Positions 14,378 through 36,354 of a stretch of DNA of 36,354 nucleotides are shown here, piece by piece. Source of the stretch: Clostridiales bacterium UBA4653. Lineage in GTDB: Bacteria > Bacillota > Clostridia > Oscillospirales > CAG-272. The notes beneath the pieces were generated by a model. It did no database searches, was not told the DNA's origin, and saw nothing but the letters and a program-made list of their open reading frames with translations. Where the stretch lies: the NCBI GenBank assembly GCA_002405565.1, contig DHMB01000020.1, positions 8,241 to 44,594 on the forward strand. Direction: 5' to 3'. Every line of letters starts with the position of its first letter. Position 1 is the stretch's first letter. The translations under genes were made by a program, and so were the position numbers.

Positions 14378-14406
14378 TTGACAAATAAAGGATTTAAGAG
14401 TATAAT
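14378..14406 (+). promoter_or_regulatory. Consensus sigma-A promoter heading the TIR/vWA/tubulin-like cluster
   Basis: Perfect TTGACA (14378-14383), exactly 17-nt spacer, perfect TATAAT (14401-14406). Lies in a visibly AT-rich spacer, ~200 nt upstream of ATG 14604. Confidence 0.6.
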
Positions 14407-14482
14407 GAAAAAAATGACGAATTATGTCTGTGCGATATCTTTTCCGCGGTTTCTTTACTAAAATGCGCAAGACTTCCAGGTT

Positions 14483-14540
14483 AAAAACGGTTGCTCCGTG
14501 CGCATTCCCCCCGGAACTGTGCACAGAGTAACCGTTTTTT
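14483..14540 (+). promoter_or_regulatory. Terminator-like leader hairpin (possible attenuator or small-RNA terminator)
   Basis: 5' arm aaaaacggttgctccgtgcgca (14483-14504) pairs with 3' arm tgtgcacagagtaaccgttttt (14518-14539): 22 positions, with 2 G-U pairs and 1 C-A mismatch. 13-nt loop, then a T6 run (14535-14540). Possible competing 8-bp pairing of aatgcgca (14462-14469) with tgcgcatt (14499-14506). Confidence 0.5.
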
Positions 14541-14603
14541 GCATATTGAGGGATTCGGAAATGGGTTTGGCTGAATTCCAAAATTAAATCGGAGGGTAGG
14601 AAA

Positions 14604-16250
14604 ATGACAGAAAAGACAAAGACTAACGAACCAAAACAAAACGAAACATGGGATAACGTCCAGACAAAGTTTGAGGCGTACACCGGTAACGAGCCGTATC
14701 TCTTCGTGAGCTATTCTCACAGGGATACCGCCGCTGTGTATCCCATACTTGACGCGCTCCATGACTGTAAATACCGCATATGGTATGACGAATCGTGTGA
14801 AAACGGAAACGATTTCCGCGATGAGCTGCGTCACCGCATAGAAAATGCGGAGGCAGTGTTGCTTTTCGTATCGAAAAGCTCAATGACATCTCCCTTCTGC
14901 GGCATGGAAATCATCGTCGCAAGAGAGAACAACAAGCGCCTTTATCCGATATATCTTGATGATGCGGATGTTCCGCCGGCTTTCGCAATACTTCTTTCAA
15001 ACACACAGCACAGCATGGCAGGCAATATGGACAAGCTCATCAAAGCGCTTTTGCGTGATCTGCCTGCGGTTGCAATGGATCGTCTCACAATCGGAGACGG
15101 AGAGCTCAAAAAGTGCGAAGATAACGGCAATAGCATAACCGTTGACGAAGGGGTACGCGTAATATGCGCCGACGCCTTCAAGGATCGCAAAGCTCTGCAC
15201 ACGATCATCCTGCCGCAGACGCTTGAAACAATCGGGGAAGAGAGCTTCCGCGGGTGCAGCAATCTTGAAGCGATGGACGTGCCCGAAAAGACGTCCAGAA
15301 TAGGTTCGAGCGCCTTCCGCGACTGTATAAGCATGAAGAGCCTGAAAGTTCGCAATGGGTACATAAAGATAGGCGAAAGAGCATTTGAAAACTGCGCCTC
15401 ACTTGAAAGCGTTTCGCTTCCCGACGGACTTACGGAAATTTACGGTGGCGTGTTCAACAGCTGTAAAAGTCTTGTACACATAGACCTGCCGAAAAATCTT
15501 ACGATACTCGGCGAGAGCGCATTTTCGGATTGCGTCTGCCTTGAAAAGATGGAAGTGCCGGAGGCGGTTGTCAAGATAGACGACCTTGCCTTCAACGGGT
15601 GCACTAATCTGACGAAGATAGTCCTTCACGAGGGACTCCGCAAGATCGGGAAGGGCGCTTTCAAGAACTGCCGTAATCTTAAGCAGATAGAGCTTCCGAT
15701 CTCGCTTTCCAGCATAGGCGACGCACCGTTCCGCGGATGTGAGTCGATAAAGTCGATTCACGTCGACCCGAAAAACCGTTATTACAAATCCGAGCCGAAC
15801 AAGCGTGAGGGCAGCGACCACGTTCTTTTCAACAAGAACAAATCGGTGATAGTTGCATATCCGGCGAGCAGCCGCGAGGTTCAGTATGACATACCGGACA
15901 GCGTTACGGTCATCAGCGACTGGGCGTTCAGCGAATGTAAAAAGCTCAACCGTATCACGATACCGGACAGCGTATCCGAGATAGGTGAAGGCGCGTTCTG
16001 CAACTGCGTGCTTCTCGATGAGGTTGAAATCCCGGACAGCGTTGAAAAAATCGACGACTGCGCCTTCCGCGGGTGCGCAAGCCTTGAAAAGGTAGTCATT
16101 CCGTCATCCGTAAAGGATCTCGGCTGGGGACTTTTCGACGGTTGCGAGGGCACCGTTACGGTATACTGCGACGAAGGCTCCGCGATACACGATTATTGCC
16201 GCAGATGCGGAATAAAGAGCGCGCCGATATCCGAAAAGGAATCGAACTGA
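14604..16250 (+). CDS. Cytoplasmic TIR-domain protein fused to BspA-type leucine-rich repeats
   Basis: 548 aa with no signal peptide. TIR_2-like N-terminus: YLFVSYSHRDTAAVYPILDAL..YRIWYDE...AEAVLLFVSKSSMTSPFCGMEIIVA, with putative catalytic Glu102 at 14907-14909. From ~15140 there are roughly ten ~23-aa repeats of the form IGxxAFxxCxxLxxIxIPxxV. Strong SD GGAGGG 7 nt upstream. Confidence 0.85.
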   Translation: MTEKTKTNEPKQNETWDNVQTKFEAYTGNEPYLFVSYSHRDTAAVYPILDALHDCKYRIWYDESCENGNDFRDELRHRIENAEAVLLFVSKSSMTSPFCGMEIIVARENNKRLYPIYLDDADVPPAFAILLSNTQHSMAGNMDKLIKALLRDLPAVAMDRLTIGDGELKKCEDNGNSITVDEGVRVICADAFKDRKALHTIILPQTLETIGEESFRGCSNLEAMDVPEKTSRIGSSAFRDCISMKSLKVRNGYIKIGERAFENCASLESVSLPDGLTEIYGGVFNSCKSLVHIDLPKNLTILGESAFSDCVCLEKMEVPEAVVKIDDLAFNGCTNLTKIVLHEGLRKIGKGAFKNCRNLKQIELPISLSSIGDAPFRGCESIKSIHVDPKNRYYKSEPNKREGSDHVLFNKNKSVIVAYPASSREVQYDIPDSVTVISDWAFSECKKLNRITIPDSVSEIGEGAFCNCVLLDEVEIPDSVEKIDDCAFRGCASLEKVVIPSSVKDLGWGLFDGCEGTVTVYCDEGSAIHDYCRRCGIKSAPISEKESN

Positions 16251-16342
16251 CGCGCGGCAAGACCGCTTTCAAAGGAATAAACCGGACAATGTCCGGAATT
16301 CATAAACAGACTTAACAATTTAATTTATGAGGTGATTTTTGT

Positions 16343-17866
16343 ATGACATCATGGTTTGGTAATCAATGGGGAAAATTTCTCTCCTCAATGCCCGAAAATA
16401 TCGGCGTGTTCGCTGTTATTTTCTTTCTGCTGTTTATTGCGGTAAGCGCGCTGTTTTCGCTGACAAAGCGGTTCATGCAGAACATTGCCGCTCTCGCGGC
16501 GGCGATAGTTTCGGCGTTCGTATCGTTTTTGCTCGTCGACTCGATTTACGGAATTCTTCTCAAACGCGAAGGAATTCAGGCGGCGATAAACGAACTGCTT
16601 GAGAAATTTCCGGAGCTGGGCGCGTCCTCTGAGGGAGTCGTTGCGGTTTCAAAATTCGTTGTCAGTCTTGTTGCCGTTCCCGCGCTGTTCCTCATAGTTT
16701 ACGGAATTTTCTCGCTTGTAACGTCGATAATATTCCGCAAGTATCAGAAGGAAGGCGTAAGCGGCGGGAAAAAGGCGGAAAGCAACATTTCGTCGACTGT
16801 GAAGATAATCATCGGCGTGCTTTCCGGCGTTGCGGCGTTTGTGGCATATTTCTTCCCGTCACATTCGTTTGTCGACCTTATGACGCTGCCGCCCATCCTT
16901 ATAACGGCGTTTGCGGTTGTCAAGGGAATAATGTTCTTCTTCGGAAAACACCGTCCCAAGGCAGACTGGGCGAGAAAGACCGCGGGAATCGTTTCCGGCG
17001 CGGTCACGGGGCTTATCCTCTTTGTAATGCTGATGTTCCCGTTCCTCTCTCTCGCAAACATCATAGGCGAAGGCGTCTCGGCAATACCGGAAGAGGCGCT
17101 CGCGTGCTATGAAAACGCAGAGGTTGACGAAGACCCGGATGACGTCGGCGTAATGACGACAATATTCAGCTACACGGCGAAGGCAAAGGTCTATTCGGAC
17201 AGTTACAGCAAAACCTTTGTTTCAAAGATATATCCCAAATGCGGGGTGGCGGGACTGCACAATAAGGTCGCTCCCGAAAAACAGGCGGAATCGATACTCA
17301 AAGCAACCGTTGCGCTCGGTTCGTATTATTATTGCGAAGAGCAGGGCGCCGAGTTTGCCAATGCCGATGAACGTCTCGGCGAATATATCGACGACGTTGT
17401 AGGCGATAAAAACTTAAACGATGTGTTGCAGGCGCTTTTCTGCGACACAATTTCAACCACATTTGCAGAGGAGAGCGAAAGAGACGCTTTCCGCGAAGAG
17501 ATATCCGCGACGGCAAAACTCTCTGGGCTTGAAAATCTTGATGAGCAGGCGCGTGCGGAAGAGAGCGTCAGACTTTCAAGAGTATATCAGGTTCTCTGCA
17601 AAATGCTTGTTTCAAAGATGAACAAAAGAGCGGACGGCTTTACCCCCGATGACCTCATACTCATCGGAAATATGCTCGACGCAATGAACGACACCTATTC
17701 CTTCGGCGATACGCCGGCGCCTATTCTCGAAAAGCTCCATGAGGACAAGAGTATAGGCAGGTTCATAGATCCGCAGGAAGCAATCGGAAATGTCAGCGCA
17801 GGAGAATACAGTTACACACTTTATATGGAAATTATAAATGAGAGAATTGCCGACGCCGCAAGGTAA
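16343..17866 (+). CDS. Polytopic membrane protein (about 6-7 TM helices) with an acidic helical C-terminal domain; unknown function
   Basis: 507 aa. Hydrophobic helices run through roughly aa 20-245, then a soluble Asp/Glu-rich region. GAGGTGA SD. No motif I recognise. Confidence 0.75.
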   Translation: MTSWFGNQWGKFLSSMPENIGVFAVIFFLLFIAVSALFSLTKRFMQNIAALAAAIVSAFVSFLLVDSIYGILLKREGIQAAINELLEKFPELGASSEGVVAVSKFVVSLVAVPALFLIVYGIFSLVTSIIFRKYQKEGVSGGKKAESNISSTVKIIIGVLSGVAAFVAYFFPSHSFVDLMTLPPILITAFAVVKGIMFFFGKHRPKADWARKTAGIVSGAVTGLILFVMLMFPFLSLANIIGEGVSAIPEEALACYENAEVDEDPDDVGVMTTIFSYTAKAKVYSDSYSKTFVSKIYPKCGVAGLHNKVAPEKQAESILKATVALGSYYYCEEQGAEFANADERLGEYIDDVVGDKNLNDVLQALFCDTISTTFAEESERDAFREEISATAKLSGLENLDEQARAEESVRLSRVYQVLCKMLVSKMNKRADGFTPDDLILIGNMLDAMNDTYSFGDTPAPILEKLHEDKSIGRFIDPQEAIGNVSAGEYSYTLYMEIINERIADAAR

Positions 17867-17902
17867 GGTGTTCTCAGATAACTTGGAAAGGAAGGAAACA
17901 TT

Positions 17903-20900
17903 GTGTTTTCAAAAAGGATTATCCGCATTCTGGCGCTGTGTATTGCCGCTGTATTTCTGATGGCATGCATACCGATGTCAGCCGCGCAGGCGAGCGAGGC
18001 GGAGGCGTCATACAAACGGAAGATTATTTCCGTTGTATATGACAACTCCGGCTCAATGGAGGTGCAGAGCAGAATAAATTATGCGCAGTATTCTCTTCAG
18101 ATACTGCTTTCAATGCTCGGCAGCGGCGACATTCTGACGATATCTCCGATGAACCCCGTCTCGGACGAAGAGCCGACGATTGAGGTCAAGCTCCAGGACG
18201 GAGACTGCAGCAATAAGATAAAGGAGATTGTCAACCGCAGGTCTATTACAAAGGCAAACGGCGGCACGCCGTTCGGAGCGGTTGAAAGAGCTGTCGAAGA
18301 GCTTGAAAAGCGCGGACTGAAAAAGGTTGAGGACGCGGGCGATGTTGAGCAGAGCGACGAATTCTGGCTCGTCATCCTGACGGACGGCTCGTTTGACTCG
18401 CTGGCGTCGCAGAGCAAGCTCGAGGACGCGATCGGCAAGCTGATCGGCAAATACAGCTCGCTCAGAACAATCTATCTCGGAATAGGCAGCAGCGCCGTGG
18501 ATCTTTCCTCCGGCAAGCTTGCGACTTCCGCGTCATTTACCGCACTGAAAGCGGGCGAAAAGACTTCGTTTGTTGAAAAAATGCAGACGATATGCAACAT
18601 AATGTCCGGAAGATACGCGCTCCAGCAGGATTCGTATACTATAAAAGGAAACAAGGTCACTCTTGACTTTGACAGAGCCGATTTCCCGTTCCGCACGGTT
18701 TCCGTCCTGCTTCAGGACTGCGCCGCGGAGCTCAGGGATATAAAATATAACGGAAAGAGCATTGAGCCGTCGCAGTTCAGCGTTCTGTCCGGTAACCCGA
18801 AGGTCGGTATGGAGGACGGATACTCCGCCGTTATAAAGGGAACGCCGTATTTCTCGTCCGGAAAGATGGAGCTTGTGTTCTCGTCCGACATAAAGGCTGA
18901 GAATCTGACGGTCACGGGCGAGCCCGCGCTTACTATTCAGCCGTATTTCGAGTATCTGAAAGACGGGAAATGGGAAAGAACGGACATCCGTTATATAAAC
19001 AGTAATCTTACAAAAAACGACTCGATAAGAGTCGGATATGAAATTTATGAGCAGGCAAACGGCAAAAAGCTCAATCTTGCCTCCATCTTCGGTGACGTTG
19101 TGTCATACGTTTCGTATGCCGGCAACCGCTACGAAATAGAAGAGAAGATACCGCTTGTCGTCGGTACGAACGAAATCGGCATATCGGTAAGCGTTATGGG
19201 CGGAAGCTACTCGATGACATCATCTGCGATGTGTATCATAAGCGATAACCCGATGGCGTACCGCATTGAAGCGACGACAGAGGAAAAGCGTGAAGCTTCG
19301 TCAAACAAAATGCTTGTGAAGTTCACGGTCTACTCCGATGACAAGCCGCTCTCCAAAAAACAGCTTGAGGAATACACTCTCAAGCTCGGCGCTGTGAGAG
19401 AAAACGGCACCGACCTTCCGATGAGTTTTGAAATCAATTCATCCGGTATTGTTGTTGCCGAGGTCGACCTGAAGGACGTTCCGTCCGGCGAAAAATGCAC
19501 TGTTTCGCTGAGAGTGACCTCTCCCTTGAACGTCTCACGCGAGAAAAAGGTGGAATTCAGCGTCAAGGCGAATATATCGAAGATCGACATAGGCCCCTCC
19601 GGTGATCTTTCATCAAAATCGTTCTCGCTTACACAGTATGAACTGCTCAGCAACAAAAACGGAATGGAATTCGTCCTCATGGCGAACGGTCAGGCTTATG
19701 ACTTCACAGCCTCCGGCGACATTTCTTATTCCGTTACGCTTGATGGCAGAGATATTACAAAATATACAAAAGCGGAAGGTAACAGACTGATATTCACCCC
19801 GACGCTTGAAAGCCTCGGAGACGAGGCGGGCAAGCCCGGAAAAAAGACGGTTGAGCTGACGGTTTCGTCAGTACTGAACCCCAAGGTTTCCGGAAAGGCA
19901 ACGGCGACTCTCGAGCTTCTGAAGTCCGAAATGACGGTGACCGTCAAAGCGGACGAGAGCCCGTTGAACATAACGCCGTATCAGCTCAAAAACAACGGGC
20001 GCGGATTTGAGTTTGTCATAAAGATTGACGGAAAGACTGTCGCTTTTGATGACGGAATCATTGATTGGCAGCTGACTCTCGGCGGAACGGATATAGGAAA
20101 GTACGCTACCGTAAGCGGCGGCGGACTCAGCTTTATCCCGACGGAGGAGAGCATGGGCGGAAGTACCTCTCTCGGCGGCAGAACCGCTTCCGTGAAGGCA
20201 TGGCTTAAGGAAATCCCGGATATATCGGCGTCGTGCGACGCTTCATGGAACATCGTCGACAGTCTTTGGGAGATCGTGATATTGCCGGGCACATCAGAGG
20301 TTGACCGCTTTGCGATAGAAGACAGCGGAGCTTCTTTCAAAGTAAAACTTATGAGAGACAAGGTCTGGCTCAGCGCCGAAGAGGCGCAGGCGCTCTTTGA
20401 ATCAGGCGCGCTCAGATTTGAATGCGGAATGATCGATAAGAACTTCCTGCTTCCTGTTGGCAAGGAGATAACCTTTGAAAGCGAAGACGGAGTCGGAATA
20501 ATAACATACAGCGTCACGCGCGATCAGATAAATCCCTTTGCAAGCTTTATGGCAATGCTTATTCCGAACGGCACGCGGACAGTAAACATTTTCTGCAACA
20601 CCGCAGAAAACAGCACAGACCTCTTCTTTGTGAAGAGCGCGGCATGGTCATACATATGGAGAATACTTGTTATTCTGCTGATAATTTATCTCATAGTATG
20701 GTTTGTGCTTGCGTTCAAGGTCAAGAGCTTCCCTTCGGGAAGAATTGTGACCGTTATAAGGAGCGGAGCGTATGCGAGATTTTCCAGCAAAGACCTGAAC
20801 AAGACGTTTATCGATAAATACTTGTGGCATCTTCAGCGCCTGCTCCCCTGGAAGCTGGCAACAAATCAGCCGGATCGTGACAAGGTCACATTCTCGTCCG

Positions 20901-21220
20901 GAATAACAACGAAGGGGTCGGCAAAATCAAGCGGAACCAAGGCGAAGCTGAAGATTAAAGGAAAGCCGCCGAAGAAGCTTTATAAGATATCGTTTGTAGG
21001 GCTTCCGACCGAAATTTATACGTACATGATGTCTTTCGGCAAACCTTCGATTGGCAAGGCGCCGGGGAAGATCAACGCAGACGATTTCTTCGGATGTGTT
21101 TCTCTTGAAGATGAGATAGAAAAATATCCCGATCTTTCAAGCGGAAAATATTATGCCGAAGTCGACGACAAAAAGGGAAAAGTAACAAAGGTTACTTATT
21201 ATATGAGAACAAATTTCTAA
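17903..21220 (+). CDS. Surface-exposed vWA-domain protein with Ig-like repeats, a single C-terminal TM anchor and a Lys-rich cytoplasmic tail
   Basis: 1105 aa. Signal peptide (...IPMSAAQA/SEA). Complete MIDAS: DNSGS (18041-18055), GGTPF, ILTDG. Beta-rich repeats include a clear ~100-aa tandem duplication (~19615-19920 vs ~19960-20220). TM helix WSYIWRILVILLIIYLIVWFVLAF (~20646-20717). ~165-aa tail includes KAKLKIKGKPPKK. GTG start. Confidence 0.85.
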   Translation: MFSKRIIRILALCIAAVFLMACIPMSAAQASEAEASYKRKIISVVYDNSGSMEVQSRINYAQYSLQILLSMLGSGDILTISPMNPVSDEEPTIEVKLQDGDCSNKIKEIVNRRSITKANGGTPFGAVERAVEELEKRGLKKVEDAGDVEQSDEFWLVILTDGSFDSLASQSKLEDAIGKLIGKYSSLRTIYLGIGSSAVDLSSGKLATSASFTALKAGEKTSFVEKMQTICNIMSGRYALQQDSYTIKGNKVTLDFDRADFPFRTVSVLLQDCAAELRDIKYNGKSIEPSQFSVLSGNPKVGMEDGYSAVIKGTPYFSSGKMELVFSSDIKAENLTVTGEPALTIQPYFEYLKDGKWERTDIRYINSNLTKNDSIRVGYEIYEQANGKKLNLASIFGDVVSYVSYAGNRYEIEEKIPLVVGTNEIGISVSVMGGSYSMTSSAMCIISDNPMAYRIEATTEEKREASSNKMLVKFTVYSDDKPLSKKQLEEYTLKLGAVRENGTDLPMSFEINSSGIVVAEVDLKDVPSGEKCTVSLRVTSPLNVSREKKVEFSVKANISKIDIGPSGDLSSKSFSLTQYELLSNKNGMEFVLMANGQAYDFTASGDISYSVTLDGRDITKYTKAEGNRLIFTPTLESLGDEAGKPGKKTVELTVSSVLNPKVSGKATATLELLKSEMTVTVKADESPLNITPYQLKNNGRGFEFVIKIDGKTVAFDDGIIDWQLTLGGTDIGKYATVSGGGLSFIPTEESMGGSTSLGGRTASVKAWLKEIPDISASCDASWNIVDSLWEIVILPGTSEVDRFAIEDSGASFKVKLMRDKVWLSAEEAQALFESGALRFECGMIDKNFLLPVGKEITFESEDGVGIITYSVTRDQINPFASFMAMLIPNGTRTVNIFCNTAENSTDLFFVKSAAWSYIWRILVILLIIYLIVWFVLAFKVKSFPSGRIVTVIRSGAYARFSSKDLNKTFIDKYLWHLQRLLPWKLATNQPDRDKVTFSSGITTKGSAKSSGTKAKLKIKGKPPKKLYKISFVGLPTEIYTYMMSFGKPSIGKAPGKINADDFFGCVSLEDEIEKYPDLSSGKYYAEVDDKKGKVTKVTYYMRTNF

Positions 21221-21248
21221 AAAAATTATTATTTAAGGAGATAAAACA

Positions 21249-25124: not shown

Positions 25125-25170
25125 CGACCGTATCATAAAACGACAAAAACTCAAAGACCGTAATATAAAA

Positions 25171-25201
25171 GCTGTTTTCCGCCATTGCGGCGGAAAACAG
25201 C
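25171..25201 (+). other. Perfect 13-bp stem-loop between the two tubulin-like genes
   Basis: gctgttttccgcc (25171-25183), loop attgc, ggcggaaaacagc (25189-25201). No downstream U-tract on the + strand. A second ggcggaaag copy at 25206-25214 overlaps the weak SD of the next gene. Confidence 0.6.
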
Positions 25202-25228
25202 CAGCGGCGGAAAGGCAGACCCGATACT

Positions 25229-30450: not shown

Positions 30451-33400
30451 ATGATTGTTGCAGCCAAAATATTATTTCTGATAGTACTGCTTTTGGTTCT
30501 GTCATATCCGTTTCTGCCTTTTTCATCGAAGGCAAAGCGCTTTTCAACGTTTTCATCGCTGAGATACAATCCCCCGTTCAACAAACGTAATTTCATATTC
30601 ATTCCGATAACAATTGCGGAATTTATAGTCGTGGCGCTGATTTTTGAGATAATCGCGGGACTTTGCGATAAATTCGGAAGTCTGCCGTTTGTTTCGACAA
30701 TCATAAGCGCTGTTGAAGCAAAGCTCGGCGTTCAGGGCGGATTTTTCGTCTTTGCCGTGCGCGTGCTTCTGATAAACATTGCAATTCTCTATGCGTTTAT
30801 ATTTGTAAAAGGAATATTGCGTCATGTGTTTATCGACCCCATATTCGGTTGGGGCAAAAACGGGAAGATGACCCGTAAAGAGCGCAAGGCGCTTGCGGAA
30901 AAACGTAAACTTGAAAAGAAAAAGAGAAAAGAAGCAAAGAAAAGAGGCGAGAAATACGTTGCCGAGGAGCCCGCTCCCGAGCCCGTGAAAACGGATGACG
31001 GAGAGGAAGACCCGGAGAACGGTCACATAATGCGCTTCCCGCACCTTGAAGGTGACGAGGAAAAGGATGAGAACAAGAAGCGCTCCGGCGAAACGGAGAA
31101 GGAGTCATCCTCCGAAACGGAAGGAATTCCGAAGGAAGAAGAGCCGCCGGCTCCGCCCAAATCGGAGTTTATGCGCGCGATACTCGGTATCTTCTTCGAA
31201 GCTCCCGATTATCTTTATGCAAGACCGAGCGTTGCCCGCGCAACGGCAGTTCTGCAAACCTTCCTTTATATTGTCGAGGCAATATATATACTCCTCTTTG
31301 TCAACATGGCGGCAATGCTCGTTTTTGCAATGCCCGAATGGATGTACAGAGTGGCGCAGATCATAAGAAGCTTCTATATTTACCCGTTTATCTCCGTTAT
31401 ATTCCTTCAGGAGATATGCAATTTCCTGCGCACAAAGCAGCCCGTGGAAAAGCCCGAGGAGCTTATGCAGAAGGAAGAAGAGGAAACAAAGAAGGAATGT
31501 GAAGCGAGACTTGTCGCGCTCAACAACGAGCTGACAAAGCGCTTCGATGAAAATCATTTCTTCCGTTATTATCCCGAGCTGCCCTGCAAGGAGGTTCCGG
31601 AATACGTTTGCACTAACATTCCTTACGCAAGTGCGCTTGCGTATATACGCGAATACGCCAGACAGAATTCGGGGCATGTTGTCCAGAGTTATATGGAAAG
31701 TCTGGACGCGGTGTTCAATGACAACCACATCTATTTCGGCACGTCATTCTATTCGGAATACGGCGAATATCTCATTTCTTATGCCTATACCAGACTTCTC
31801 TCCGGCGCGAGAATGATATTCATCATTTCCGATATGGAAAAGGCGGAGTCGCTCCGCAGATACATACGCGACAGACTTACCTCCATGACGAATTGCAGTA
31901 ACAATGCGACATGGCGCGTATATATAAAGGGAGAAAGACTTGACCAGGCGGACATTCTCATCGCCACACCCGAGGATTTCCGCGATGACAGCATAATAAA
32001 CCATTATCCCGCGTTCTTTGAAGAGGTCTGCAACGCGGTGTTTGTGGACGCGGATCGCATAACCGCGATATACGGTTATCTTTGCCCGATTCTTTCGATG
32101 AGACTGAAAAAGGCGACGGAAAACAGGATCCGCTTTATATTCCTCACGCGTGACATCATGCGCGGATTTGCGGCAAAAAGCCTGCCGAGATATTTCTGTA
32201 TCGACAAGGTTTATACATGCAGCAGTGCGCTTGAAAACGAGAGCACCGCATACACGCTTCTCAACAGAGAAAGCAAGCACCACAGAATTTATAATAAGCA
32301 CGGGCAGACTCTCACGAGCCTTGAATGTATCGTCGCCGAGCAGGCGGTGAAGTTCGGTGTTGACGGAGTCAAGGTTATAAGCGGCGCGCCGATCGACCAT
32401 GCGGACGCAGTTTCCCTTGCGACAAAGGGCGTTGAGCTGAATGAATTCTATAAGCCCGTTCCGAAGATAAACTACATGATCTATGCGGATGACAGGTGTA
32501 ACCTCGCTTCCGCCATCTATACGTGCACCCGCTTCAGGGGACATGTAAAATCCATTGCAAACATTATCTCCAAGCCCTATCTTCTCCGCGACTACTTCGT
32601 CTTTATGGCGAGCAACGGCGAATATATAAACCGTTCATCGTTCATTCAGCCGCGTGCCGTTGAGAGCATGGACGTCGGAAAGCTGAGCCTGCTCCGTATC
32701 TTCTGCGAAGCCAGCATGGATGACGGAATGTCGCTTGCGAAGTTCTGCGAGAAGATGAGAAACATCATTGAAATGGTCGGCAACCGTTTTTCGTCGGCGC
32801 CGAGCTGTTTCTGCGGTGATATGATCGACAAGATCAAGAGCGGGGAGCTTGTGCCCGACGAGGATGACTATGCCGCATATCTTGTCTCCGGACTTTTTGA
32901 TTATGCCGGCACGGGCAAAGATCGCAGCGAGGGCAAGAAGGCGAAGGATTACTATCTTATCGTCGACTCCAAATACAGCACCTCCGCAAGTCGCGACAAG
33001 ACAATCTGCTTTAAGAGAAGCAAATATTTCTTTGACAGACTTACGGACAAAAACAAACGCGTCGAGCTGCGGTTAAATGACTCGACGATAGGCTATCTTG
33101 ACACGTTCCCGGGCAGAGTTCACCAGCAGTATATGGTGGGGCAGAGTATCATCTTCCGCAACATGGAATATGAGATAGGCGAAATATCGGACGACAGCAG
33201 CGTAATTTACCTGCGCAACGAAAACGTCACGTTCAAAAACTCGCTCGATACGTTCTTTTTGCGTCGTTATGACGTCAGAAATCTTGAAAAGGTCGGGGAC
33301 GAGGGTATCCTTTACCGTTCAAACTCCAACCTTGCCGAGATACGCGTCTCGCACGCGATAGCCGATATCACCGGCGAAAACTACGGCTTCTTTACGCTGA

Positions 33401-36354
33401 CGTGCGACAATCAGACGCTTGATTTCTCGCATGGCGTCGAGGGTAACCCCTGGGTCGGCGAGGCGAGAGTAAACGAAACGGCAAGAAAGCTCAAAGGAGC
33501 CGATTGTCTTGTTGTCACGCTGCGCGCGAGAGTTGAATGTAACGACGAAATGCGAATTCTGATTTCGGTCGTTTTCAATGAATTCATAAAGACGATATTC
33601 CCGGATACTTACAGGCTTCTTTCCATATGCCCTGTGCTTGCGTCGCCCATTGAAAACGCATGGGACGGCGACAAGTCGACGGATGAGCAGATACGCGTTC
33701 TTTATCCGTATCTTGCAAATTCGTGCCTAAAAGAAACCGACGATCATATCATGAGATTTATCATGGTCAACGACTGCGCGGACGACGTCGGAATTCTTGA
33801 CTGGTTCTATGACAAAAAAGCAAACTATATGAGGGAGTTCCTCTCGCATATATATTCATATATGCAGTGGCTCAAGATTTGCGGCAAGCCCGGAGCATAT
33901 ATATACTTTGGAGAAGACAAGCTTCCCGCATGCTTTGACCTTGAAGGCTGTTGCACCGTCTTTGACGGGCTCGGGCTCATCCTCAGCGACGACGGCGAGA
34001 CCGAAATTGAGACGGCAGGCAACTTTGAAGTGCTCTCAAGGACGAAGAGATGTGCATTCTGTCACAGAGTTGTTGAAAGCGGAAGATATGCGTTGTTTGA
34101 CAAGAAGCGCTATATCTGCGTTGACTGCTTTGACGTTGTCCGCGACAGAGATCAGCTCCGCGCACTTGTTCAGGAAGTCTATGAATACCTCAGAAAGACT
34201 TATCCGGACGTTGTATTCGGACAGACGGGCTTTGATATCGATAAGAGCTATGAGCTCGGCGAAGATCAGGTGCTCAGCGAAAATTATTACCGTATTGACT
34301 ATGACAGCCGCACGGTATATATAGAAAAAGAATTGCCTGTCACAAACGCGAGAGTTGCCATATTGCGCGGAATTATCGGCATGTGGCAGTATGACAATCA
34401 GCTTCTCATACCTCAGTCAAACGGACAGCTTTATTTCGAGGAGCTTTATTATCTCCGCGGACTCGGCAAGAACGAAAGCGCAGACTGGATACACGACGCG
34501 CTGGACGCCAATACCGCGTTTGTCATAAAGGATATAGAAGATTACATATCCGGAAAGGCAGAGACGGAAGAAACGCCGGATGAAACGCCGGAAGATACGG
34601 ACGACGTTGACAGCGTCGACGAAGCCGACGAGACAGACGAAGCCGGCGAAACCGATGAAAGCAAGGAAGCGCCGGAGACGGTCGAACCCGAAAAGTCCGA
34701 AGAAGAGCCTGCGCAAGAGCCGACAGAAGGCTCCCGCCGCACGAGCTTCACATATATGTGGGAAGTAATTGCGGAAATGCAGGAAGACGAGGACGACGAA
34801 GGCAGTGACGGCGACTATTCAAACGACCTCTATGATCCCAACAAGATCCCGCGTTTCTGGAAGTGCTATCTGCGCGGAGAGAAGGCGACGGATCAGGAAG
34901 ACCCGCTCTCGGACGATGACAGAGATCTTCTCGATGACGAAACTCTCGATAAGCTCGCGGGAGAAAGCGACGAAGAGGATGATGACAGCGACGAGAAAAA
35001 GGAGGAGACCTTGAATGACGAATGCTCCGGACGCGGAGAGATGATATTCTTCGAGCTGACCAAGCCGAACGCTCCGTTTGCGTATGAAGATCCCGCGGAG
35101 GACGCGGACGAAGAAAGCGGCGACGAAGGCACAGGCGACGGCTCCGAAAGCGAAGAAACTCCTGAAAACGAAGAGACGGAGGAGGGCGGAGAGCCCTCCG
35201 AAGTCAAAACGAAGGCTCAGCTCCGCAAGGAGGAAAAGGAACGCAAAAAGCGTCTGAAAGCCGAGGAGAAGCAGAAAAAACGGGAAGAGAAGGAAGCTCT
35301 GAAAAAAGAGAAGGAAGAGCGTAAGAAGGCTAAAAAAGAGGCTAAGAAAAAACGCGGGAAAACCGCGGAGGAAGAGCCTGCCGAGGATCCCGAAAAGACC
35401 GAGACCCCGGAGGGGACGGAAATACCGGAGACACCGGAAAATCCGGAAAATCCGGAAAATCCGGAGACGCCCGAAAATCCTGACAATTCCGAAGAAACGA
35501 AAAAGCCCAAAAAGCCGAAGAAGGAAAAGAAACCGAAGAAGGCAAAGACGCCGAAGAAGGGAAAAAAGAACAAAATCTTTGACCCGGACGAGGCGACTAA
35601 TCCCAAAATTCGCGTCTATAACGAGTTTGTCCGCCATGCATACGCATATGACAGAGGCGATATATCGAGAGAGGGCGTCACGGACGCAGAACTCCAAAGT
35701 ATATTTGCTTATGTCATCGGCGACTGGCCAGAGCTTTTCTGGCTCAGCGGTTACTCATACAACGCGCAAACCTTCAAGCTCACGTTCCGTTGCCTTGACG
35801 AAAACGGCGACGTTGACGTCCGACAGATAAAAAAGAAGATAAAGCTTCTGAAAAAAGGCGCAAAGGAATTCACAAAGGGAATAACCCGTCGTACAAAGCC
35901 GTATGACGCCTGCCTGAAAATATACCGCAGACTCATTCTCAAGCTTGATTATGACGGTATCGGACTCAACATACGCGCAGGAGAGGACATCGGTTCGGAC
36001 GACAGTCTGCGCTCGCTTTACAGCGCACTTGTCGAACACAAGGTTGTTTGCGCGGGATATGCTTTCGCAATGCAATATCTTTTGCAGTCTGTCGGGATAA
36101 GCGCGGCGTATGTTTCAAGCGAAACCGCGCCCGGCAACACATCGCATGCGTTCAATACGCTCCGCATAGGCAAGTATTGCTATTATCTCGACGCGACATG
36201 GGGCGACAATTCGAACACCATGACGGGCGAGACCAATCGCGGACGTATAACATATGACTATTTCTGCGTGCCTTACAGGGAATTCATCATGACCGGCGGT
36301 AACGCAAGGGAATATCATGAGCCGAGAAAGGAATATTATACAAATCTCGAAGAA
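30451..36354 (+). CDS. Giant (>=1968 aa, 3'-truncated) membrane protein: ~5 TM helices, degenerate SF2-helicase-like region, C4 zinc ribbon, polyampholyte low-complexity region, transglutaminase-like Cys protease core
   Basis: Not in the supplied ORF track. I checked every frame-1 codon from ATG 30451 (directly after TAA 30448-30450) to nt 36354 and found no stop (1968 codons). AAGGGGG SD about 10 nt upstream. C-terminal VVCAGYAFAMQYLL (Cys 36049-36051), TSHAFNTL (His 36145-36147) and YYLDATWGD (Asp 36190-36192) fit the transglutaminase-like C-H-D core. Confidence 0.88.
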   Translation, partial: MIVAAKILFLIVLLLVLSYPFLPFSSKAKRFSTFSSLRYNPPFNKRNFIFIPITIAEFIVVALIFEIIAGLCDKFGSLPFVSTIISAVEAKLGVQGGFFVFAVRVLLINIAILYAFIFVKGILRHVFIDPIFGWGKNGKMTRKERKALAEKRKLEKKKRKEAKKRGEKYVAEEPAPEPVKTDDGEEDPENGHIMRFPHLEGDEEKDENKKRSGETEKESSSETEGIPKEEEPPAPPKSEFMRAILGIFFEAPDYLYARPSVARATAVLQTFLYIVEAIYILLFVNMAAMLVFAMPEWMYRVAQIIRSFYIYPFISVIFLQEICNFLRTKQPVEKPEELMQKEEEETKKECEARLVALNNELTKRFDENHFFRYYPELPCKEVPEYVCTNIPYASALAYIREYARQNSGHVVQSYMESLDAVFNDNHIYFGTSFYSEYGEYLISYAYTRLLSGARMIFIISDMEKAESLRRYIRDRLTSMTNCSNNATWRVYIKGERLDQADILIATPEDFRDDSIINHYPAFFEEVCNAVFVDADRITAIYGYLCPILSMRLKKATENRIRFIFLTRDIMRGFAAKSLPRYFCIDKVYTCSSALENESTAYTLLNRESKHHRIYNKHGQTLTSLECIVAEQAVKFGVDGVKVISGAPIDHADAVSLATKGVELNEFYKPVPKINYMIYADDRCNLASAIYTCTRFRGHVKSIANIISKPYLLRDYFVFMASNGEYINRSSFIQPRAVESMDVGKLSLLRIFCEASMDDGMSLAKFCEKMRNIIEMVGNRFSSAPSCFCGDMIDKIKSGELVPDEDDYAAYLVSGLFDYAGTGKDRSEGKKAKDYYLIVDSKYSTSASRDKTICFKRSKYFFDRLTDKNKRVELRLNDSTIGYLDTFPGRVHQQYMVGQSIIFRNMEYEIGEISDDSSVIYLRNENVTFKNSLDTFFLRRYDVRNLEKVGDEGILYRSNSNLAEIRVSHAIADITGENYGFFTLTCDNQTLDFSHGVEGNPWVGEARVNETARKLKGADCLVVTLRARVECNDEMRILISVVFNEFIKTIFPDTYRLLSICPVLASPIENAWDGDKSTDEQIRVLYPYLANSCLKETDDHIMRFIMVNDCADDVGILDWFYDKKANYMREFLSHIYSYMQWLKICGKPGAYIYFGEDKLPACFDLEGCCTVFDGLGLILSDDGETEIETAGNFEVLSRTKRCAFCHRVVESGRYALFDKKRYICVDCFDVVRDRDQLRALVQEVYEYLRKTYPDVVFGQTGFDIDKSYELGEDQVLSENYYRIDYDSRTVYIEKELPVTNARVAILRGIIGMWQYDNQLLIPQSNGQLYFEELYYLRGLGKNESADWIHDALDANTAFVIKDIEDYISGKAETEETPDETPEDTDDVDSVDEADETDEAGETDESKEAPETVEPEKSEEEPAQEPTEGSRRTSFTYMWEVIAEMQEDEDDEGSDGDYSNDLYDPNKIPRFWKCYLRGEKATDQEDPLSDDDRDLLDDETLDKLAGESDEEDDDSDEKKEETLNDECSGRGEMIFFELTKPNAPFAYEDPAEDADEESGDEGTGDGSESEETPENEETEEGGEPSEVKTKAQLRKEEKERKKRLKAEEKQKKREEKEALKKEKEERKKAKKEAKKKRGKTAEEEPAEDPEKTETPEGTEIPETPENPENPENPETPENPDNSEETKKPKKPKKEKKPKKAKTPKKGKKNKIFDPDEATNPKIRVYNEFVRHAYAYDRGDISREGVTDAELQSIFAYVIGDWPELFWLSGYSYNAQTFKLTFRCLDENGDVDVRQIKKKIKLLKKGAKEFTKGITRRTKPYDACLKIYRRLILKLDYDGIGLNIRAGEDIGSDDSLRSLYSALVEHKVVCAGYAFAMQYLLQSVGISAAYVSSETAPGNTSHAFNTLRIGKYCYYLDATWGDNSNTMTGETNRGRITYDYFCVPYREFIMTGGNAREYHEPRKEYYTNLEE
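35425..35487 (+). repeat. In-frame 9-nt tandem repeat (Pro-Glu-Asn/Thr units) inside the giant ORF
   Basis: Seven 9-nt units. Three are perfect ccggaaaat copies (35434-35442, 35443-35451, 35452-35460), flanked by ccggagaca, ccggagacg, cccgaaaat and cctgacaat. Encodes PETPENPENPENPETPENPDN. Confidence 0.85.

What the first reader, a model, noticed from the sequence alone, without database searches (positions are those of the whole stretch)
14378..36354. Over 22 kb operon-like cluster coupling TIR-LRR, surface vWA, twin tubulin-like proteins and a giant transglutaminase-domain membrane protein
Seven co-directional genes follow one consensus sigma-A promoter. The gaps between them are 92, 36, 28, 104, -7 and 0 nt, and I saw no convincing internal terminator.

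The domain combination read from the sequence is:
- TIR with the catalytic Glu context, plus BspA-type LRR;
- an extracellular MIDAS-intact vWA with Ig-like repeats on a single-pass anchor;
- two tubulin/FtsZ-superfamily paralogs;
- two further membrane proteins;
- a multi-TM giant with a transglutaminase-like protease core.

I do not know this combination as a described system. FtsZ-like/Tubulin_2 families were predicted computationally to act in membrane remodelling in operons with membrane-associated proteins (Makarova & Koonin, 2010, as I recall). TIR domains are NADase effectors or signal generators in bacterial immunity.

Two hypotheses:
1. An envelope-spanning conflict/defence machine, with surface sensing by vWA/Ig, cytoplasmic sensing by LRR, a tubulin-like filament as scaffold or switch, and TIR plus transglutaminase-like protease as effectors.
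2. A tubulin-based envelope-remodelling or adhesion apparatus.
Basis: partly seen in the sequence, partly recalled or inferred. Interest (0 to 1): 0.92.

Follow-up and report, generated by a model that had tools for sequence, protein, structure and literature searches.

The report
Tubulin-like/vWA membrane system with TIR accessory
This is a real, conserved operon of about 26 kb in gut Clostridia; its four-gene core was catalogued in 2010 but never characterised, and here it carries extra parts (a dead helicase-like membrane giant, a protease module and an optional TIR/RyR module) that point to an envelope-anchored defence machine rather than plain membrane remodelling.

Summary
The cluster is real. 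Seven co-directional genes have the stated gaps, and an eighth (RyR-domain membrane protein) lies just past the window. TIR_2+LRR_5, two Tubulin_2 (FtsZl1) paralogs and a transglutaminase-like Cys-His-Asp module are confirmed. The vWA call rests on weaker convergent evidence.

g3-g4-g5-g6-g7 is syntenic in about 30 species genomes. A divergent second class in Oscillospiraceae has one tubulin gene. That class's core (vWA-FtsZl1-"B5"-"B12") is already listed in Makarova & Koonin 2010 supplementary tables.

New here:
- The giant's main body has the fold of a YprA/MrfA (DUF1998) helicase but lacks Walker A.
- Its C-terminus swaps between peptidase types across relatives.
- The second tubulin paralog is eroding.
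- The g3 cytoplasmic tail and g4 central region are co-varying hypervariable cassettes.
- Natural strains carry 12-18 kb deletions of the cluster.
- TIR-LRR belongs to an optional module (RyR-TM, TIR-LRR, CitMHS, sometimes a nuclease). In every informative locus I retrieved, that module sat beside this system.

Best reading: an envelope-anchored conflict system (confidence about 0.5). It is a new variant of a known kind.

The parts
14378..14406 (+). Perfect sigma-A-type promoter (TTGACA-17-TATAAT)
   Evidence: 12/12 match. Unique in the window, with 0 of 100 shuffles giving a match. The -35, -10 and first ~50 nt of the transcript are conserved in L040, the nearest species.
14483..14539 (+). 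Leader hairpin of about 25 bp followed by a U-run. It is intrinsic-terminator-like and could be an attenuator, a riboswitch-like element, or the end of a small RNA.
   Evidence: RNA fold of 14413-14603 gives -60.2 kcal/mol, z -2.9. No Rfam family matches. L040 has a different GC hairpin plus T-run at the same place.
14604..16250 (+). g1: cytoplasmic TIR (about residues 30-165) plus BspA-type LRR (170-548). It is an accessory component, not core.
   Evidence: TIR_2 2.7e-18 and LRR_5 3.2e-82. No TM segment or signal peptide. The SPFCGME[IV] Glu motif is invariant in 9 of 9 orthologs. Present in only a subset of systems.
16343..17866 (+). g2: protein with about 7 TM segments plus a soluble C-terminal half. 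Lineage-specific accessory.
   Evidence: Hydropathy. No Pfam, NCBIfam or PADLOC hit. The only ortholog found is in L040.
17903..21220 (+). g3: signal peptide, extracellular vWA with MIDAS (about residues 38-260), beta/Ig-like array (about 261-900), TM (909-928) and a hypervariable cytoplasmic tail (929-1105).
   Evidence: The tail is 6-48% identical between strains at ~95% nucleotide identity, while the rest of the protein is 94-100% identical. The class II ortholog was annotated COG2304 by Makarova & Koonin.
21249..25124 (+). g4: FtsZl1/Tubulin_2 paralog A. It has a GTPase domain (1-390), a hypervariable central region (about 400-650) and a conserved alpha-helical C-terminal region.
   Evidence: Tubulin_2 2.4e-33. 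AF2 plus Foldseek gives FtsZ for all top 50 hits, E 4e-6. GVGGTGS and AGGTGSGS are invariant. Region-by-region divergence.
25170..25202 (+). Perfect 13-bp GC-rich hairpin in the g4-g5 spacer. It has no U-tract on the + strand, so it may be a processing or stability element, or a - strand terminator.
   Evidence: -30 kcal/mol, z -3.8.
25229..28414 (+). g5: FtsZl1/Tubulin_2 paralog B. It evolves fast, and in this lineage the tubulin signature loop is eroded (SDATGGE at residues 144-150).
   Evidence: Weak Tubulin_2 hit at 2.6e-6. BLASTP to g4 gives 1e-24, and hhalign gives probability 100% over 1121 columns. Loop comparison.
28408..30450 (+). g6: conserved cytoplasmic N-domain (about 480 aa), a TM hairpin (484-554) and a C-terminal coiled-coil region. 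It corresponds to the 'B5' family of Makarova & Koonin.
   Evidence: Hydropathy. No PDB or Pfam relatives. It abuts or overlaps g7 by -47 to +11 nt in about 25 genomes. B5 label.
30451..36354 (+). g7: giant protein of 2083 aa, cut by the window end at codon 1968. It has about 6 TM segments (1-319), a YprA/MrfA-like helicase-fold region (370-1340), an acidic disordered region (about 1341-1740) and a transglutaminase-like module. It corresponds to the 'B12' family.
31558..34470 (+). g7 helicase-fold core. Two RecA-like domains and accessory domains align to MrfA over about 900 columns. Motif I is replaced by the invariant SFYSExGEY, and motif II reads DADR.
   Evidence: AF2 pLDDT 81.5, pTM 0.78. 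Foldseek hit to 6znp_A at E 1.5e-18. No GK[ST] anywhere in the region. Invariant residues.
34051..34128 (+). g7 four-cysteine cluster (C1201, C1204, C1223, C1226), probably a zinc-binding module like the one in DUF1998/MZB.
   Evidence: Invariant in 40 sequences. CxxC pairs found. Its position is consistent with the MrfA alignment. M&K noted a 'Zn finger' in B12.
36049..36192 (+). g7 transglutaminase-like catalytic triad: Cys1867, His1899, Asp1914.
   Evidence: Aligned to PDB 9crn. Conserved in 8 of 8 fused and split orthologs. The split modules have no signal peptide or TM segment, so the module is cytoplasmic.

Best explanation
WHAT IT IS (shown)
This is a class I variant of the vWA-FtsZl1-B5-B12 operon. 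Its core has five genes:
- g3, a type I membrane protein with an extracellular MIDAS-vWA/Ig ectodomain and a cytoplasmic tail.
- g4 and g5, two FtsZl1 tubulin-like paralogs. One has intact nucleotide loops and the other is degenerating.
- g6, a protein anchored by a TM hairpin.
- g7, a polytopic membrane giant. Its cytoplasmic body is a YprA/MrfA-fold module without Walker A, followed by a 4-Cys module, an acidic disordered linker and a transglutaminase-like Cys-His-Asp module.

An optional accessory module joins the core in a subset of genomes: a RyR-domain membrane protein, TIR-LRR and a CitMHS transporter, sometimes with a non-specific endonuclease. In this window the module is split, with TIR-LRR at the 5' end and RyR-TM at the 3' end.

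HOW IT MOST LIKELY WORKS (inferred)
I read it as an envelope-anchored conflict system, probably anti-phage.
1. The only extracellular part, the vWA/Ig ectodomain, binds a ligand or senses a perturbation at the cell surface.
2. Its hypervariable tail couples to the equally hypervariable central region of FtsZl1-A.
3. GTP-dependent assembly of the FtsZl1-A/B pair at the membrane acts as a threshold or scaffold.
4. This scaffold organises g6 and g7. The dead helicase module of g7 would bind incoming nucleic acid without unwinding it, and the peptidase module would deliver the output.
5. Where present, TIR-LRR (NAD+ cleavage or signalling), the RyR/Rossmann-like membrane protein and the nuclease add an abortive-infection arm.
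For: - Synteny and tight coupling of g3-g7 in about 30 species genomes.
- The same core in a deeply divergent class II.
- Topology puts only the g3 ectodomain outside the cell.
- g4's nucleotide loops are invariant and its GTPase domain is extremely conserved, for example 96% where the g3 tail is 41%.
- Two discrete cassettes, g3 tail and g4 residues 400-650, are swapped together between strains at ~95% nucleotide identity.
- Deletions of 18.2 kb and 12.1 kb, with 3-nt junction overlaps, occur in wild strains. The cluster is therefore dispensable.
- Variable effector-type neighbours recur: TIR-LRR; TIR_2-HD_3 as a 3.2-kb presence/absence polymorphism between strains at 99% nucleotide identity; Endonuclease_NS_2; and RyR-TM.
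- The g1 ortholog group was found only beside this system, in 10 of 10 informative loci.
- The g7 fold matches the helicase family central to DISARM, Druantia and Dpd. It lacks Walker A, which fits the 'inactive module' theme of Kaur et al..
- The g7 family's C-terminus swaps between transglutaminase-like and zincin-like peptidase modules.
- The catalytic residues of the transglutaminase and TIR domains are conserved.
- Kaur et al. 2020 proposed that tubulin + vWA systems in Firmicutes are conflict systems.
Against: - No experiment exists for any FtsZl1 system.
- PADLOC recognises nothing except generic weak TIR hits.
- Flanks are ordinary housekeeping genes, with no integrases, transposases or neighbouring known defence genes.
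- The core is long-lived and syntenic within a clade, which also fits a cell-biological apparatus.
- Many genomes have no effector-type accessory at all.
- Polymerisation, GTPase activity, DNA binding, peptidase activity and the g3-g4 contact are all inferred.
- A T7-type catalytic loop could not be identified in g4. The model has low confidence at residues 221-260 and 302-332, and Makarova & Koonin noted the same problem.
- Fast evolution of g3 and g5 could reflect relaxed constraint or host or surface adaptation rather than an arms race.
Confidence: 0.5

Rival explanations
1. It is a housekeeping or accessory cell-biological apparatus: an integrin-like link between a surface adhesin (vWA/Ig) and a tubulin-like membrane cytoskeleton. 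This is the original 'membrane remodelling' prediction of Makarova & Koonin. It would serve adhesion, envelope shaping or vesicle formation in gut Clostridia. TIR, RyR and nuclease genes would be unrelated passengers or regulators.
For: - The core is conserved and syntenic across many species, with housekeeping flanks and no mobile-element signature.
- The g4 GTPase domain is under very strong purifying selection.
- The ectodomain has adhesin-type domains: vWA MIDAS and intimin-like Ig.
- The original prediction is in the literature.
- Many genomes carry the core only.
Against: - It does not explain a conserved Walker-A-less YprA-fold module with a Zn cluster.
- It does not explain the peptidase swapping.
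- It does not explain the exclusive association of the TIR-LRR ortholog group, plus the nuclease, with this system.
- It does not explain the cassette-type hypervariability of cytoplasmic segments, as opposed to surface ones.
- It does not explain the large natural deletions.
Confidence: 0.3
2. It is a degenerate member of the DO-GTPase/GAP1-N2 tubulin-type conflict systems of Kaur et al. 2020. In this reading g6 (B5) is a GAP1 relative, and the GTPase has been lost or replaced by g7.
For: - Kaur et al. describe Firmicutes versions with two tubulin + coiled-coil genes and an extracellular TM-vWA protein.
- Makarova & Koonin gave the g6-position protein the same 'B5' label as the protein next to the 'new GTPase' in C. 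kluyveri.
- GAP1 often has C-terminal TM segments and a polar extension, as g6 and g7 do.
Against: - No conserved Walker A motif occurs in any cluster protein (the one GxxGKT lies in a variable g6 linker), so no P-loop GTPase is evident.
- g2, g3 and g6 have no significant Pfam-A (2025) hit, and g7 matches only Transglut_core. I could not confirm that this Pfam copy includes GAP1 or DO-GTPase models.
- g7 folds as a two-RecA SF2 helicase, not a TRAFAC GTPase.
- No separate FNIII protein is present.
Confidence: 0.12
3. It is a chance juxtaposition of unrelated genes, or a sporulation-related extension of the adjacent spoIIIA operon.
For: - The cluster directly follows spoIIIAA-AH in this species.
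- g1 and g2 are absent from most related loci.
Against: - A bidirectional terminator and a 500-bp AT-rich spacer separate spoIIIAH from the cluster.
- spoIIIA is not adjacent in any other species.
- The core order is conserved in about 30 genomes and in a second class.
- g1 orthologs always co-localise with the system.
Confidence: 0.03

Closest known systems
FtsZl1 (Pfam Tubulin_2)-vWA operons of Makarova & Koonin 2010, specifically the vWA-FtsZl1-B5-B12 neighbourhoods listed for 'Bacteroides capillosus ATCC 29799' (BACCAP_04120-04124) and Ruminococcus lactaris (RUMLAC_01526-01529)
   Same: [quoted passage not shown]
- An upstream membrane vWA protein has an intact MIDAS.
- Downstream come B5 (= g6) and B12 (= g7: membrane-associated, Zn finger, peptidase).
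- Gene sizes of my class II locus L077 (861/1183/658/1433/151 aa) match the BACCAP listing (861/1183/658/1435/151).
   Different: - The window's class I has two FtsZl1 paralogs, and one has an eroded signature loop.
- It has a transglutaminase-like module instead of a zincin module, fused or as a separate gene.
- It has a long acidic linker.
- It has an optional RyR-TM/TIR-LRR/CitMHS(/nuclease) module.
- The 2010 paper did not recognise the helicase fold of B12, did not discuss this neighbourhood in its text, and proposed membrane remodelling.
GAP1-N2-type DO-GTPase conflict systems with tubulin components (Kaur, Burroughs, Iyer & Aravind 2020)
   Same: - Found in Firmicutes.
- Two tubulin-domain + coiled-coil genes.
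- A vWA protein with TM segments and an extracellular vWA.
- Membrane-proximal components and polar extensions.
- Variable effector-type accessories.
- Proposed NTP-dependent thresholding by polymer-forming proteins.
   Different: - The defining DO-GTPase was not found. GAP1 and FNIII were not detected with the available profiles.
- The place of the GTPase is taken by a Walker-A-less SF2 helicase-fold giant.
YprA/MrfA (DUF1998) helicases of MrfAB repair, DISARM, Druantia, Dpd and ARMADA
   Same: - The overall fold aligns over about 900 columns (Foldseek E 1.5e-18 to MrfA).
- A four-cysteine module sits in the C-terminal part.
- Nuclease- or peptidase-type modules are fused C-terminally.
   Different: - Motif I lacks GK[ST], and motif II reads DADR.
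- There is no sequence-level match to helicase or DUF1998 profiles.
- The family is polytopic-membrane-anchored.
- It is small (144 representative clusters) and self-contained.
- It is absent from the 2025 survey of the YprA family.
Membrane-anchored anti-phage systems that sense at the envelope and act on incoming DNA (Zorya, Kiwa), and TIR-based systems (Thoeris). This comparison rests on my own knowledge.
   Same: - The logic is similar: a membrane complex plus a cytoplasmic DNA-handling module.
- TIR serves as an NAD+-consuming or signalling arm.
   Different: - No homologous components were detected (PADLOC).
- The partner of TIR here is a RyR/Rossmann-like membrane protein, not ThsA.
- The sensor is an extracellular vWA/Ig protein coupled to tubulin-like GTPases.

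Membership tests
FtsZl1-vWA operon (Makarova & Koonin 2010) | FtsZl1 protein: N-terminal FtsZ-like GTPase domain with GGGTG(S/T)G-type loop, extended middle region and alpha-helical C-terminal domain, about 1000-1300 aa | tested here: met
   g4 hits Tubulin_2 at 2.4e-33 and has AGGTGSGS. Its model's top Foldseek hits are all FtsZ. It is 1291 aa. g5 is a full-length paralog.
FtsZl1-vWA operon (Makarova & Koonin 2010) | Adjacent gene for a vWA protein with intact MIDAS, often with a signal peptide or TM segment | tested here: met
   g3 lies directly upstream. D47xS49xS51, T122 and D161 are invariant. VWA_2 hits 5 of 14 orthologs. It has a signal peptide and a TM segment. The class II ortholog is labelled COG2304 by the authors. 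The window copy alone has no Pfam hit.
FtsZl1-vWA operon (Makarova & Koonin 2010) | Partner families B5 and B12 downstream, as in the B. capillosus and R. lactaris neighbourhoods | tested here: met
   The class II locus L077 reproduces the BACCAP gene sizes. g7 relates to class II g7' at hhalign probability 99%, E 4.5e-18. g3 relates to g3' at probability 99.5%. The g6-to-g6' link rests on position only: hhalign probability was 4.5%, confined to the TM region.
FtsZ/tubulin superfamily polymerising GTPases | Nucleotide-binding fold with T1 and T4 loops | tested here: met
   Met for g4. g5 in this window has SDATGGE in place of GGTGSG, so the feature is not met for that copy.
FtsZ/tubulin superfamily polymerising GTPases | T7 catalytic loop and C-terminal activation domain that complete the active site in a filament | tested here: inconclusive
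   The model has low confidence at residues 221-260 and 302-332. Foldseek alignments cover 200-310 columns at rmsd 6-7 A. Makarova & Koonin also could not identify T6-H7-T7.
FtsZ/tubulin superfamily polymerising GTPases | GTP-dependent polymerisation | not testable with these tools
   This requires biochemistry or imaging.
DO-GTPase / GAP1-N2 tubulin-type conflict system (Kaur et al. 2020) | One or two TRAFAC-clade DO-GTPases with Walker A and B motifs | tested here: not met
   No conserved GxxxxGK[ST] occurs in any cluster protein. No GTPase Pfam hit was found. g7 has an SF2 helicase fold.
DO-GTPase / GAP1-N2 tubulin-type conflict system (Kaur et al. 2020) | GAP1 protein (N2, M and C domains) | tested here: inconclusive
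   g6 has no Pfam or PDB hit. However, M&K labelled the g6-position protein 'B5', the same label as CKL_1669 next to the new GTPase. I had no GAP1 sequence to compare.
DO-GTPase / GAP1-N2 tubulin-type conflict system (Kaur et al. 2020) | Two tubulin + coiled-coil genes and an extracellular TM-vWA protein (Firmicutes theme) | tested here: met
YprA/MrfA (DUF1998) SF2 helicases | Two RecA-like domains plus accessory domains in the MrfA arrangement | tested here: met
   Foldseek hit to 6znp_A at E 1.5e-18 over about 900 columns, from a model with pLDDT 81.5.
YprA/MrfA (DUF1998) SF2 helicases | ATPase motifs I (GxGK[ST]) and II (DExH) | tested here: not met
   No GK[ST] occurs in residues 370-1340. 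The invariant SFYSExGEY and DADR stand in their places.
YprA/MrfA (DUF1998) SF2 helicases | Four-cysteine zinc-binding module (MZB/DUF1998) | tested here: met
   C1201, C1204, C1223 and C1226 are invariant in 40 sequences. There is no Pfam DUF1998 match by sequence.
Transglutaminase-like cysteine peptidase superfamily | Cys-His-Asp triad in the papain-like core | tested here: met
   The profile hits PDB 9crn at E 5e-13 with the triad aligned. C1867/H1899/D1914 is conserved in 8 of 8 orthologs. Pfam Transglut_core scores 21.3 bits, below the cut-off of 23, for the window copy, but 35 bits in relative P0303.
TIR-domain NADases and signal generators | TIR fold with the catalytic Glu | tested here: met
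   TIR_2 scores 67 bits against a cut-off of 28. The Glu of SPFCGME[IV] is invariant in 9 of 9 orthologs. Equating it with the catalytic Glu of the WCxxE-type motif rests on my own knowledge. Enzymatic activity is not testable here.
Thoeris | ThsB-type TIR together with a ThsA effector (SIR2/SLOG or TM-Macro) | tested here: not met
   Only sub-threshold ThsB and ThcB4 hits were found. No ThsA-like protein is present. g8 has no PADLOC hit.
RyR-repeat domain proteins | RyR (PF02026) repeat | tested here: met
   The g8 family profile scores E 1.2e-18 to a RyR chimera and 7e-9 to a chain named 'Putative ryanodine receptor' (4n05). Pfam RyR hits 5 of 6 orthologs. g8 lies outside the window at L001:18316-20073.

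The most novel reading that the evidence does not exclude
This would be a new kind of bacterial immune machine that works 'outside-in', like an integrin.
- An extracellular vWA/Ig receptor transmits through a specificity-determining tail to a tubulin-superfamily heteropolymer, made of one active and one degenerate subunit as in alpha/beta-tubulin.
- GTP-driven assembly of that polymer at the membrane is the decision step.
- It arms a membrane-tethered dead YprA helicase, acting as a sensor or clamp for entering DNA, with a peptidase output.
- A second arm would have TIR-made NAD+-derived nucleotides act on a RyR-domain membrane protein. That would be a prokaryotic parallel to cADPR-RyR signalling.
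Probability: 0.15. Interest if true: 0.9.

Novelty: new variant of a known kind. Interest (0 to 1): 0.66.

Why it matters
- FtsZl1 proteins are the most divergent branch of the tubulin/FtsZ superfamily. They have had no assigned function since 2010.
- This locus gives a concrete, testable picture of one subfamily: its defined partners, a candidate interaction interface (g3 tail with g4 centre), an unexpected dead helicase module related to those of DISARM and Druantia, and effector-type accessories.
- If it is a defence system, it would be a large one absent from current catalogues, in abundant gut Clostridia. It would also be the first with a tubulin-like GTPase at its centre.
- If it is not, it is an integrin-like link between surface and cytoskeleton in bacteria.
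- A cultured carrier of the simpler class exists (Pseudoflavonifractor sp. CLA-AP-H29, plus the strains listed in 2010), so experiments are feasible.

Tried and rejected
1. Sporulation link. spoIIIA is adjacent only in this species and is separated by a terminator. Rejected.
2. 'TIR-LRR/RyR pair exists without the core'. This was my own interim reading from tblastn. It was wrong: profile comparison showed divergent g6'/g7' genes directly upstream, and contexts showed tubulin and vWA further up.
3. Known defence system. PADLOC gave nothing beyond weak TIR hits.
4. Known RNA element in the leader. There was no Rfam hit at gathering thresholds.
5. Sequence-level link of g7 to helicases. PDB profile search, Pfam, and phmmer against 1.84 billion representatives found only family members. 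The helicase assignment therefore rests on predicted structure only.
6. g6 function. No PDB or Pfam relatives were found. hhalign of the class I profile against class II g6' matched only the TM region.
7. The profile job with the g7 alignment failed because the profile exceeded 1200 positions. I reran it as a single sequence.
8. Literature on bacterial RyR domains and TIR. The search was uninformative.
9. Phyletic completeness within the clade, and tree congruence, could not be assessed from 10-kb loci.

Full report
CONTEXT AND OBSERVATION

The window is chromosomal DNA of an uncultured spore-forming gut Clostridium. Upstream lie dnaG, sigA, an unknown 1078-aa ORF, and spoIIIAA-AH ending at 14080 with a bidirectional terminator.

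The TTGACA-17-TATAAT promoter at 14378-14406 is the only perfect match in the window, and none of 100 shuffles produced one.

A contig of the same organism (L001) shows that the last gene is 2083 aa. It also shows an eighth co-directional gene of 585 aa, followed by opposite-strand genes and rpsJ.

Two things were missed in the transcription picture:
- The ~195-nt leader contains a hairpin of about 25 bp followed by a U-run (about 14483-14539), which looks like an intrinsic terminator. The nearest species (L040) conserves the promoter and the first ~50 nt of the transcript. It has its own GC hairpin plus T-run at the same place. No Rfam family matches.
- A perfect 13-bp hairpin sits in the g4-g5 spacer, without a U-tract on the + strand.

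DOMAIN ASSIGNMENTS

- g1 is TIR_2 + LRR_5, with no TM segment or signal peptide.
- g4 is Tubulin_2 (2.4e-33). An AF2 model of residues 1-440 (pLDDT 68) matches only FtsZ among its top 50 PDB hits.
- g5 is a full-length paralog of g4 (hhalign probability 100%, E 3e-163). In this lineage its signature loop reads SDATGGE instead of GGTGSG, whereas g4 keeps GVGGTGS and AGGTGSGS invariant.
- g3 gave no Pfam hit. Its vWA assignment rests on the following:
  - an invariant DxSxS...T...D pattern;
  - VWA_2 hits in 5 of 14 orthologs;
  - a TIGR03788 hit;
  - a best PDB hit to a double-vWA protein at E 0.12;
  - an intimin-like Ig hit;
  - the COG2304 label that Makarova & Koonin gave to its class II ortholog.
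- g8 has N-terminal TM helices and a RyR repeat (profile E 1e-18). From my reading of the alignment, it also has a Rossmann-like GxGxxG segment in the family consensus, degenerate in this copy.

TOPOLOGY

Hydropathy analysis puts only the g3 ectodomain outside the cell. g6 has a TM hairpin. g7 has about six N-terminal TM segments followed by roughly 1750 cytoplasmic residues. The transglutaminase modules that occur as separate genes have no signal peptide or TM segment, so they are cytoplasmic.

THE GIANT g7

Its C-terminal transglutaminase-like module is confirmed by a hit to PDB 9crn (E 5e-13) and an NCBIfam hit (9e-15). The Cys1867/His1899/Asp1914 triad is conserved in 8 of 8 orthologs.

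Its largest and most conserved part, residues 370-1340, had no sequence-detectable relatives. An AF2 model built on 40 homologs (pLDDT 81.5, pTM 0.78) aligns over about 900 columns to MrfA, the DUF1998 SF2 helicase (E 1.5e-18). It then aligns to Hel308, PolQ, Brr2 and RecQ at about 1e-8.

- The region has no Walker A lysine motif anywhere.
- Motif I is replaced by the invariant SFYSExGEY, and motif II reads DADR.
- A four-cysteine cluster (1201-1226) is invariant.

I therefore read g7 as a membrane-tethered, ATPase-dead YprA/MrfA-fold module.

An exhaustive phmmer search of 1.84 billion representatives found only 144 relatives. All have the same layout, and none is a canonical helicase. Among the divergent ones the C-terminal module is transglutaminase-like, zincin-like (BSP/DUF6782), DUF6273 or absent. 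Two unrelated peptidase-type folds at one position suggest a proteolytic output. A 2025 survey of YprA-family helicases in immunity does not mention tubulin, vWA or membrane-anchored members.

CONSERVATION OF THE CORE

g4 has more than 300 full-length homologs, all in uncultured Clostridia. In 48 species-level genome loci, the order g3-g4-g5-g6-g7 is kept wherever the contig allows. Intergenic gaps are small. g6 and g7 abut or overlap by -47 to +11 nt. In Christensenellaceae-labelled genomes, g7 is split into a protein of about 1400 aa plus a transglutaminase protein of about 400 aa.

Flanks differ between genomes and are ordinary housekeeping genes. spoIIIA is adjacent only in this species.

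A SECOND CLASS

A second, deeply divergent class occurs in Oscillospiraceae and includes a cultured Pseudoflavonifractor. Its order is g3'-Tubulin_2 (single copy)-g6'-g7' (no transglutaminase)-150 aa. Homology is supported by hhalign: g7 to g7' at probability 99%, and g3 to g3' at probability 99.5%.

THE ACCESSORY MODULE

g1 and g2 are absent from most class I loci. The reciprocal test is informative, however. A search for g1 orthologs (59-97% identity) in metagenome contigs found them directly preceded by a g8-type gene (divergent in L064) and followed by a CitMHS transporter wherever the contig extends past g1. This held in every species other than the window's own (L059-L067). In every locus long enough to see, the neighbourhood was Tub-g6'-g7'-(150 aa)-(Endonuclease_NS_2)-g8'-g1-CitMHS, or g7-g8-g1.

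Class I genomes show the same pair in other arrangements:
- g8 then g1, divergent from g3 (L006, L022).
- g1 directly upstream (L005).
- g1-CitMHS-g2-g3 (L040).
- g8 alone, upstream or downstream (L021, L027, L037, L039, L051).

In the window the pair is split around the core. In another genome, a different TIR protein (TIR_2-HD_3, 984 aa) sits directly upstream of g3. It is a 3.2-kb presence/absence polymorphism between strains at 99% nucleotide identity.

The TIR Glu motif is invariant in 9 of 9 g1 orthologs. PADLOC recognises none of these proteins beyond weak generic TIR matches.

POPULATION-LEVEL VARIATION

- Strains at ~95% nucleotide identity carry an 18.2-kb deletion (g3 codon ~436 joined to g8 codon ~235) and a 12.1-kb deletion (g1 codon 48 joined to g5 codon ~551). 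Each junction has a 3-nt overlap. The cluster is therefore dispensable.
- Another strain (L058) is 94-100% identical in protein sequence across g1-g4, apart from one 88% stretch in g2 and two discrete segments. These are the g3 cytoplasmic tail (6-48%) and g4 residues ~400-650 (36-50%).
- Across species, the g4 GTPase domain is the slowest-evolving part, and those two segments are the fastest.
- I take the joint replacement as a hint that the g3 tail contacts the g4 central region. This is inference.

WHAT IS ALREADY KNOWN

Makarova & Koonin (2010) defined FtsZl1 (now Pfam Tubulin_2) and its operonic link to MIDAS-intact vWA proteins and lineage-specific membrane proteins. They predicted membrane remodelling.

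Their Additional file 5 lists the class II core explicitly:
- For 'Bacteroides capillosus ATCC 29799': vWA 861 aa, FtsZl1 1183, B5 658, B12 1435, and a 151-aa protein. These are the same sizes as L077.

Kaur et al. (2020) describe Firmicutes GAP1-N2/DO-GTPase conflict systems containing two tubulin + coiled-coil genes and an extracellular TM-vWA protein. The present cluster lacks the defining GTPase. I found no experimental work on FtsZl1.

INTERPRETATION

The anatomy above is shown. The function is inferred.

I favour an envelope-anchored conflict system (about 0.5) for these reasons:
- effector-type accessories that vary and are exclusive to this system;
- a dead module of a helicase family central to DISARM and Druantia;
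- swapping between peptidase types;
- cassette hypervariability in cytoplasmic interface-like segments;
- natural deletions.

The main rival (about 0.3) is a non-immune adhesion, cytoskeleton or membrane-remodelling apparatus. It is supported by long-term synteny, housekeeping flanks, the lack of mobile-element signatures, and the many core-only genomes. Chance juxtaposition or a sporulation role is effectively excluded.

VERDICT

The finding is real and more interesting in detail than 'a domain combination'. It is not a categorically new system, because its core was catalogued in 2010 and related tubulin/vWA conflict systems were described in 2020. It is a new variant of a known but uncharacterised kind, with several new and testable features. 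I score interest at 0.66.

Noticed in passing
window 14407-14603 (and L040:1975-2265): A conserved promoter-proximal leader has a strong terminator-like hairpin and no Rfam match. A possible conserved mini-ORF starts about 7 nt after the -10 box (window MTNYVCAISFPRFLY*, L040 MTQIVCAAAF*). It could be an attenuator, a riboswitch-like element or a small RNA.
   Followed up: partly
window 5899-9135 (+): A 1078-aa ORF between sigA and spoIIIAA has no Pfam or NCBIfam hit.
   Followed up: no
L057 (junction at window 19210 to about 37425 in extended coordinates) and L072 (window 14747 to 26880): Two independent large deletions (18.2 kb and 12.1 kb) remove most of the cluster in strains at ~95% nucleotide identity. 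Each junction has only a 3-nt overlap.
   Followed up: partly
L058 versus window 20750-21220 (g3 tail) and 22446-23198 (g4 residues 400-650): Two discrete hypervariable cassettes (6-50% aa identity) sit inside genes that are otherwise 94-100% identical between conspecific strains. This suggests allelic replacement of an interaction interface.
   Followed up: partly
L053:3504-6458 (-) versus L052: A 984-aa TIR_2 + HD_3 protein (PADLOC Aga_TIR-PNTD-like TIR, 1e-12) is present or absent as a 3.2-kb indel directly upstream of g3 in genomes that share an identical g4 protein.
   Followed up: partly
L040:3868-5013, L006:1236-2378, L062:11657-12802, L076:21874 onward, L065:11659-12789: A CitMHS-family transporter gene immediately follows the TIR-LRR gene in both classes. 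The accessory module is therefore RyR-TM, TIR-LRR and CitMHS. The window copy lacks the transporter.
   Followed up: partly
L076:17117-17992, L060, L061, L065:14083-14892: An Endonuclease_NS_2 + Ada_Zn_binding protein (291 aa) and a conserved 150-aa protein lie between g7' and the RyR-TM gene in class II loci.
   Followed up: partly
L007-L009, L017, L023-L025, L034, L041, L043, L045, L073-L075: g7 is split into a helicase-fold protein of about 1400 aa and a separate cytoplasmic transglutaminase protein of about 400-500 aa, separated by -4 to +15 nt.
   Followed up: yes
L018:3010-9984: One genome has a 2324-aa g3-like protein preceded by a second g3-like gene, indicating expansion of the ectodomain protein.
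   Followed up: no
window 24409-24437 (+): An 11/12 promoter-like match (TTGACA-17-GATAAT) lies inside the 3' part of g4, upstream of the g4-g5 hairpin and g5. It could be an internal promoter.
   Followed up: no
L013:4442-6613 and L020:5076-7211: A homologous unknown protein of 711-723 aa, with no Pfam or PADLOC hit, lies directly upstream of g3 and co-directional with it in two genomes. It may be another accessory component.
   Followed up: partly
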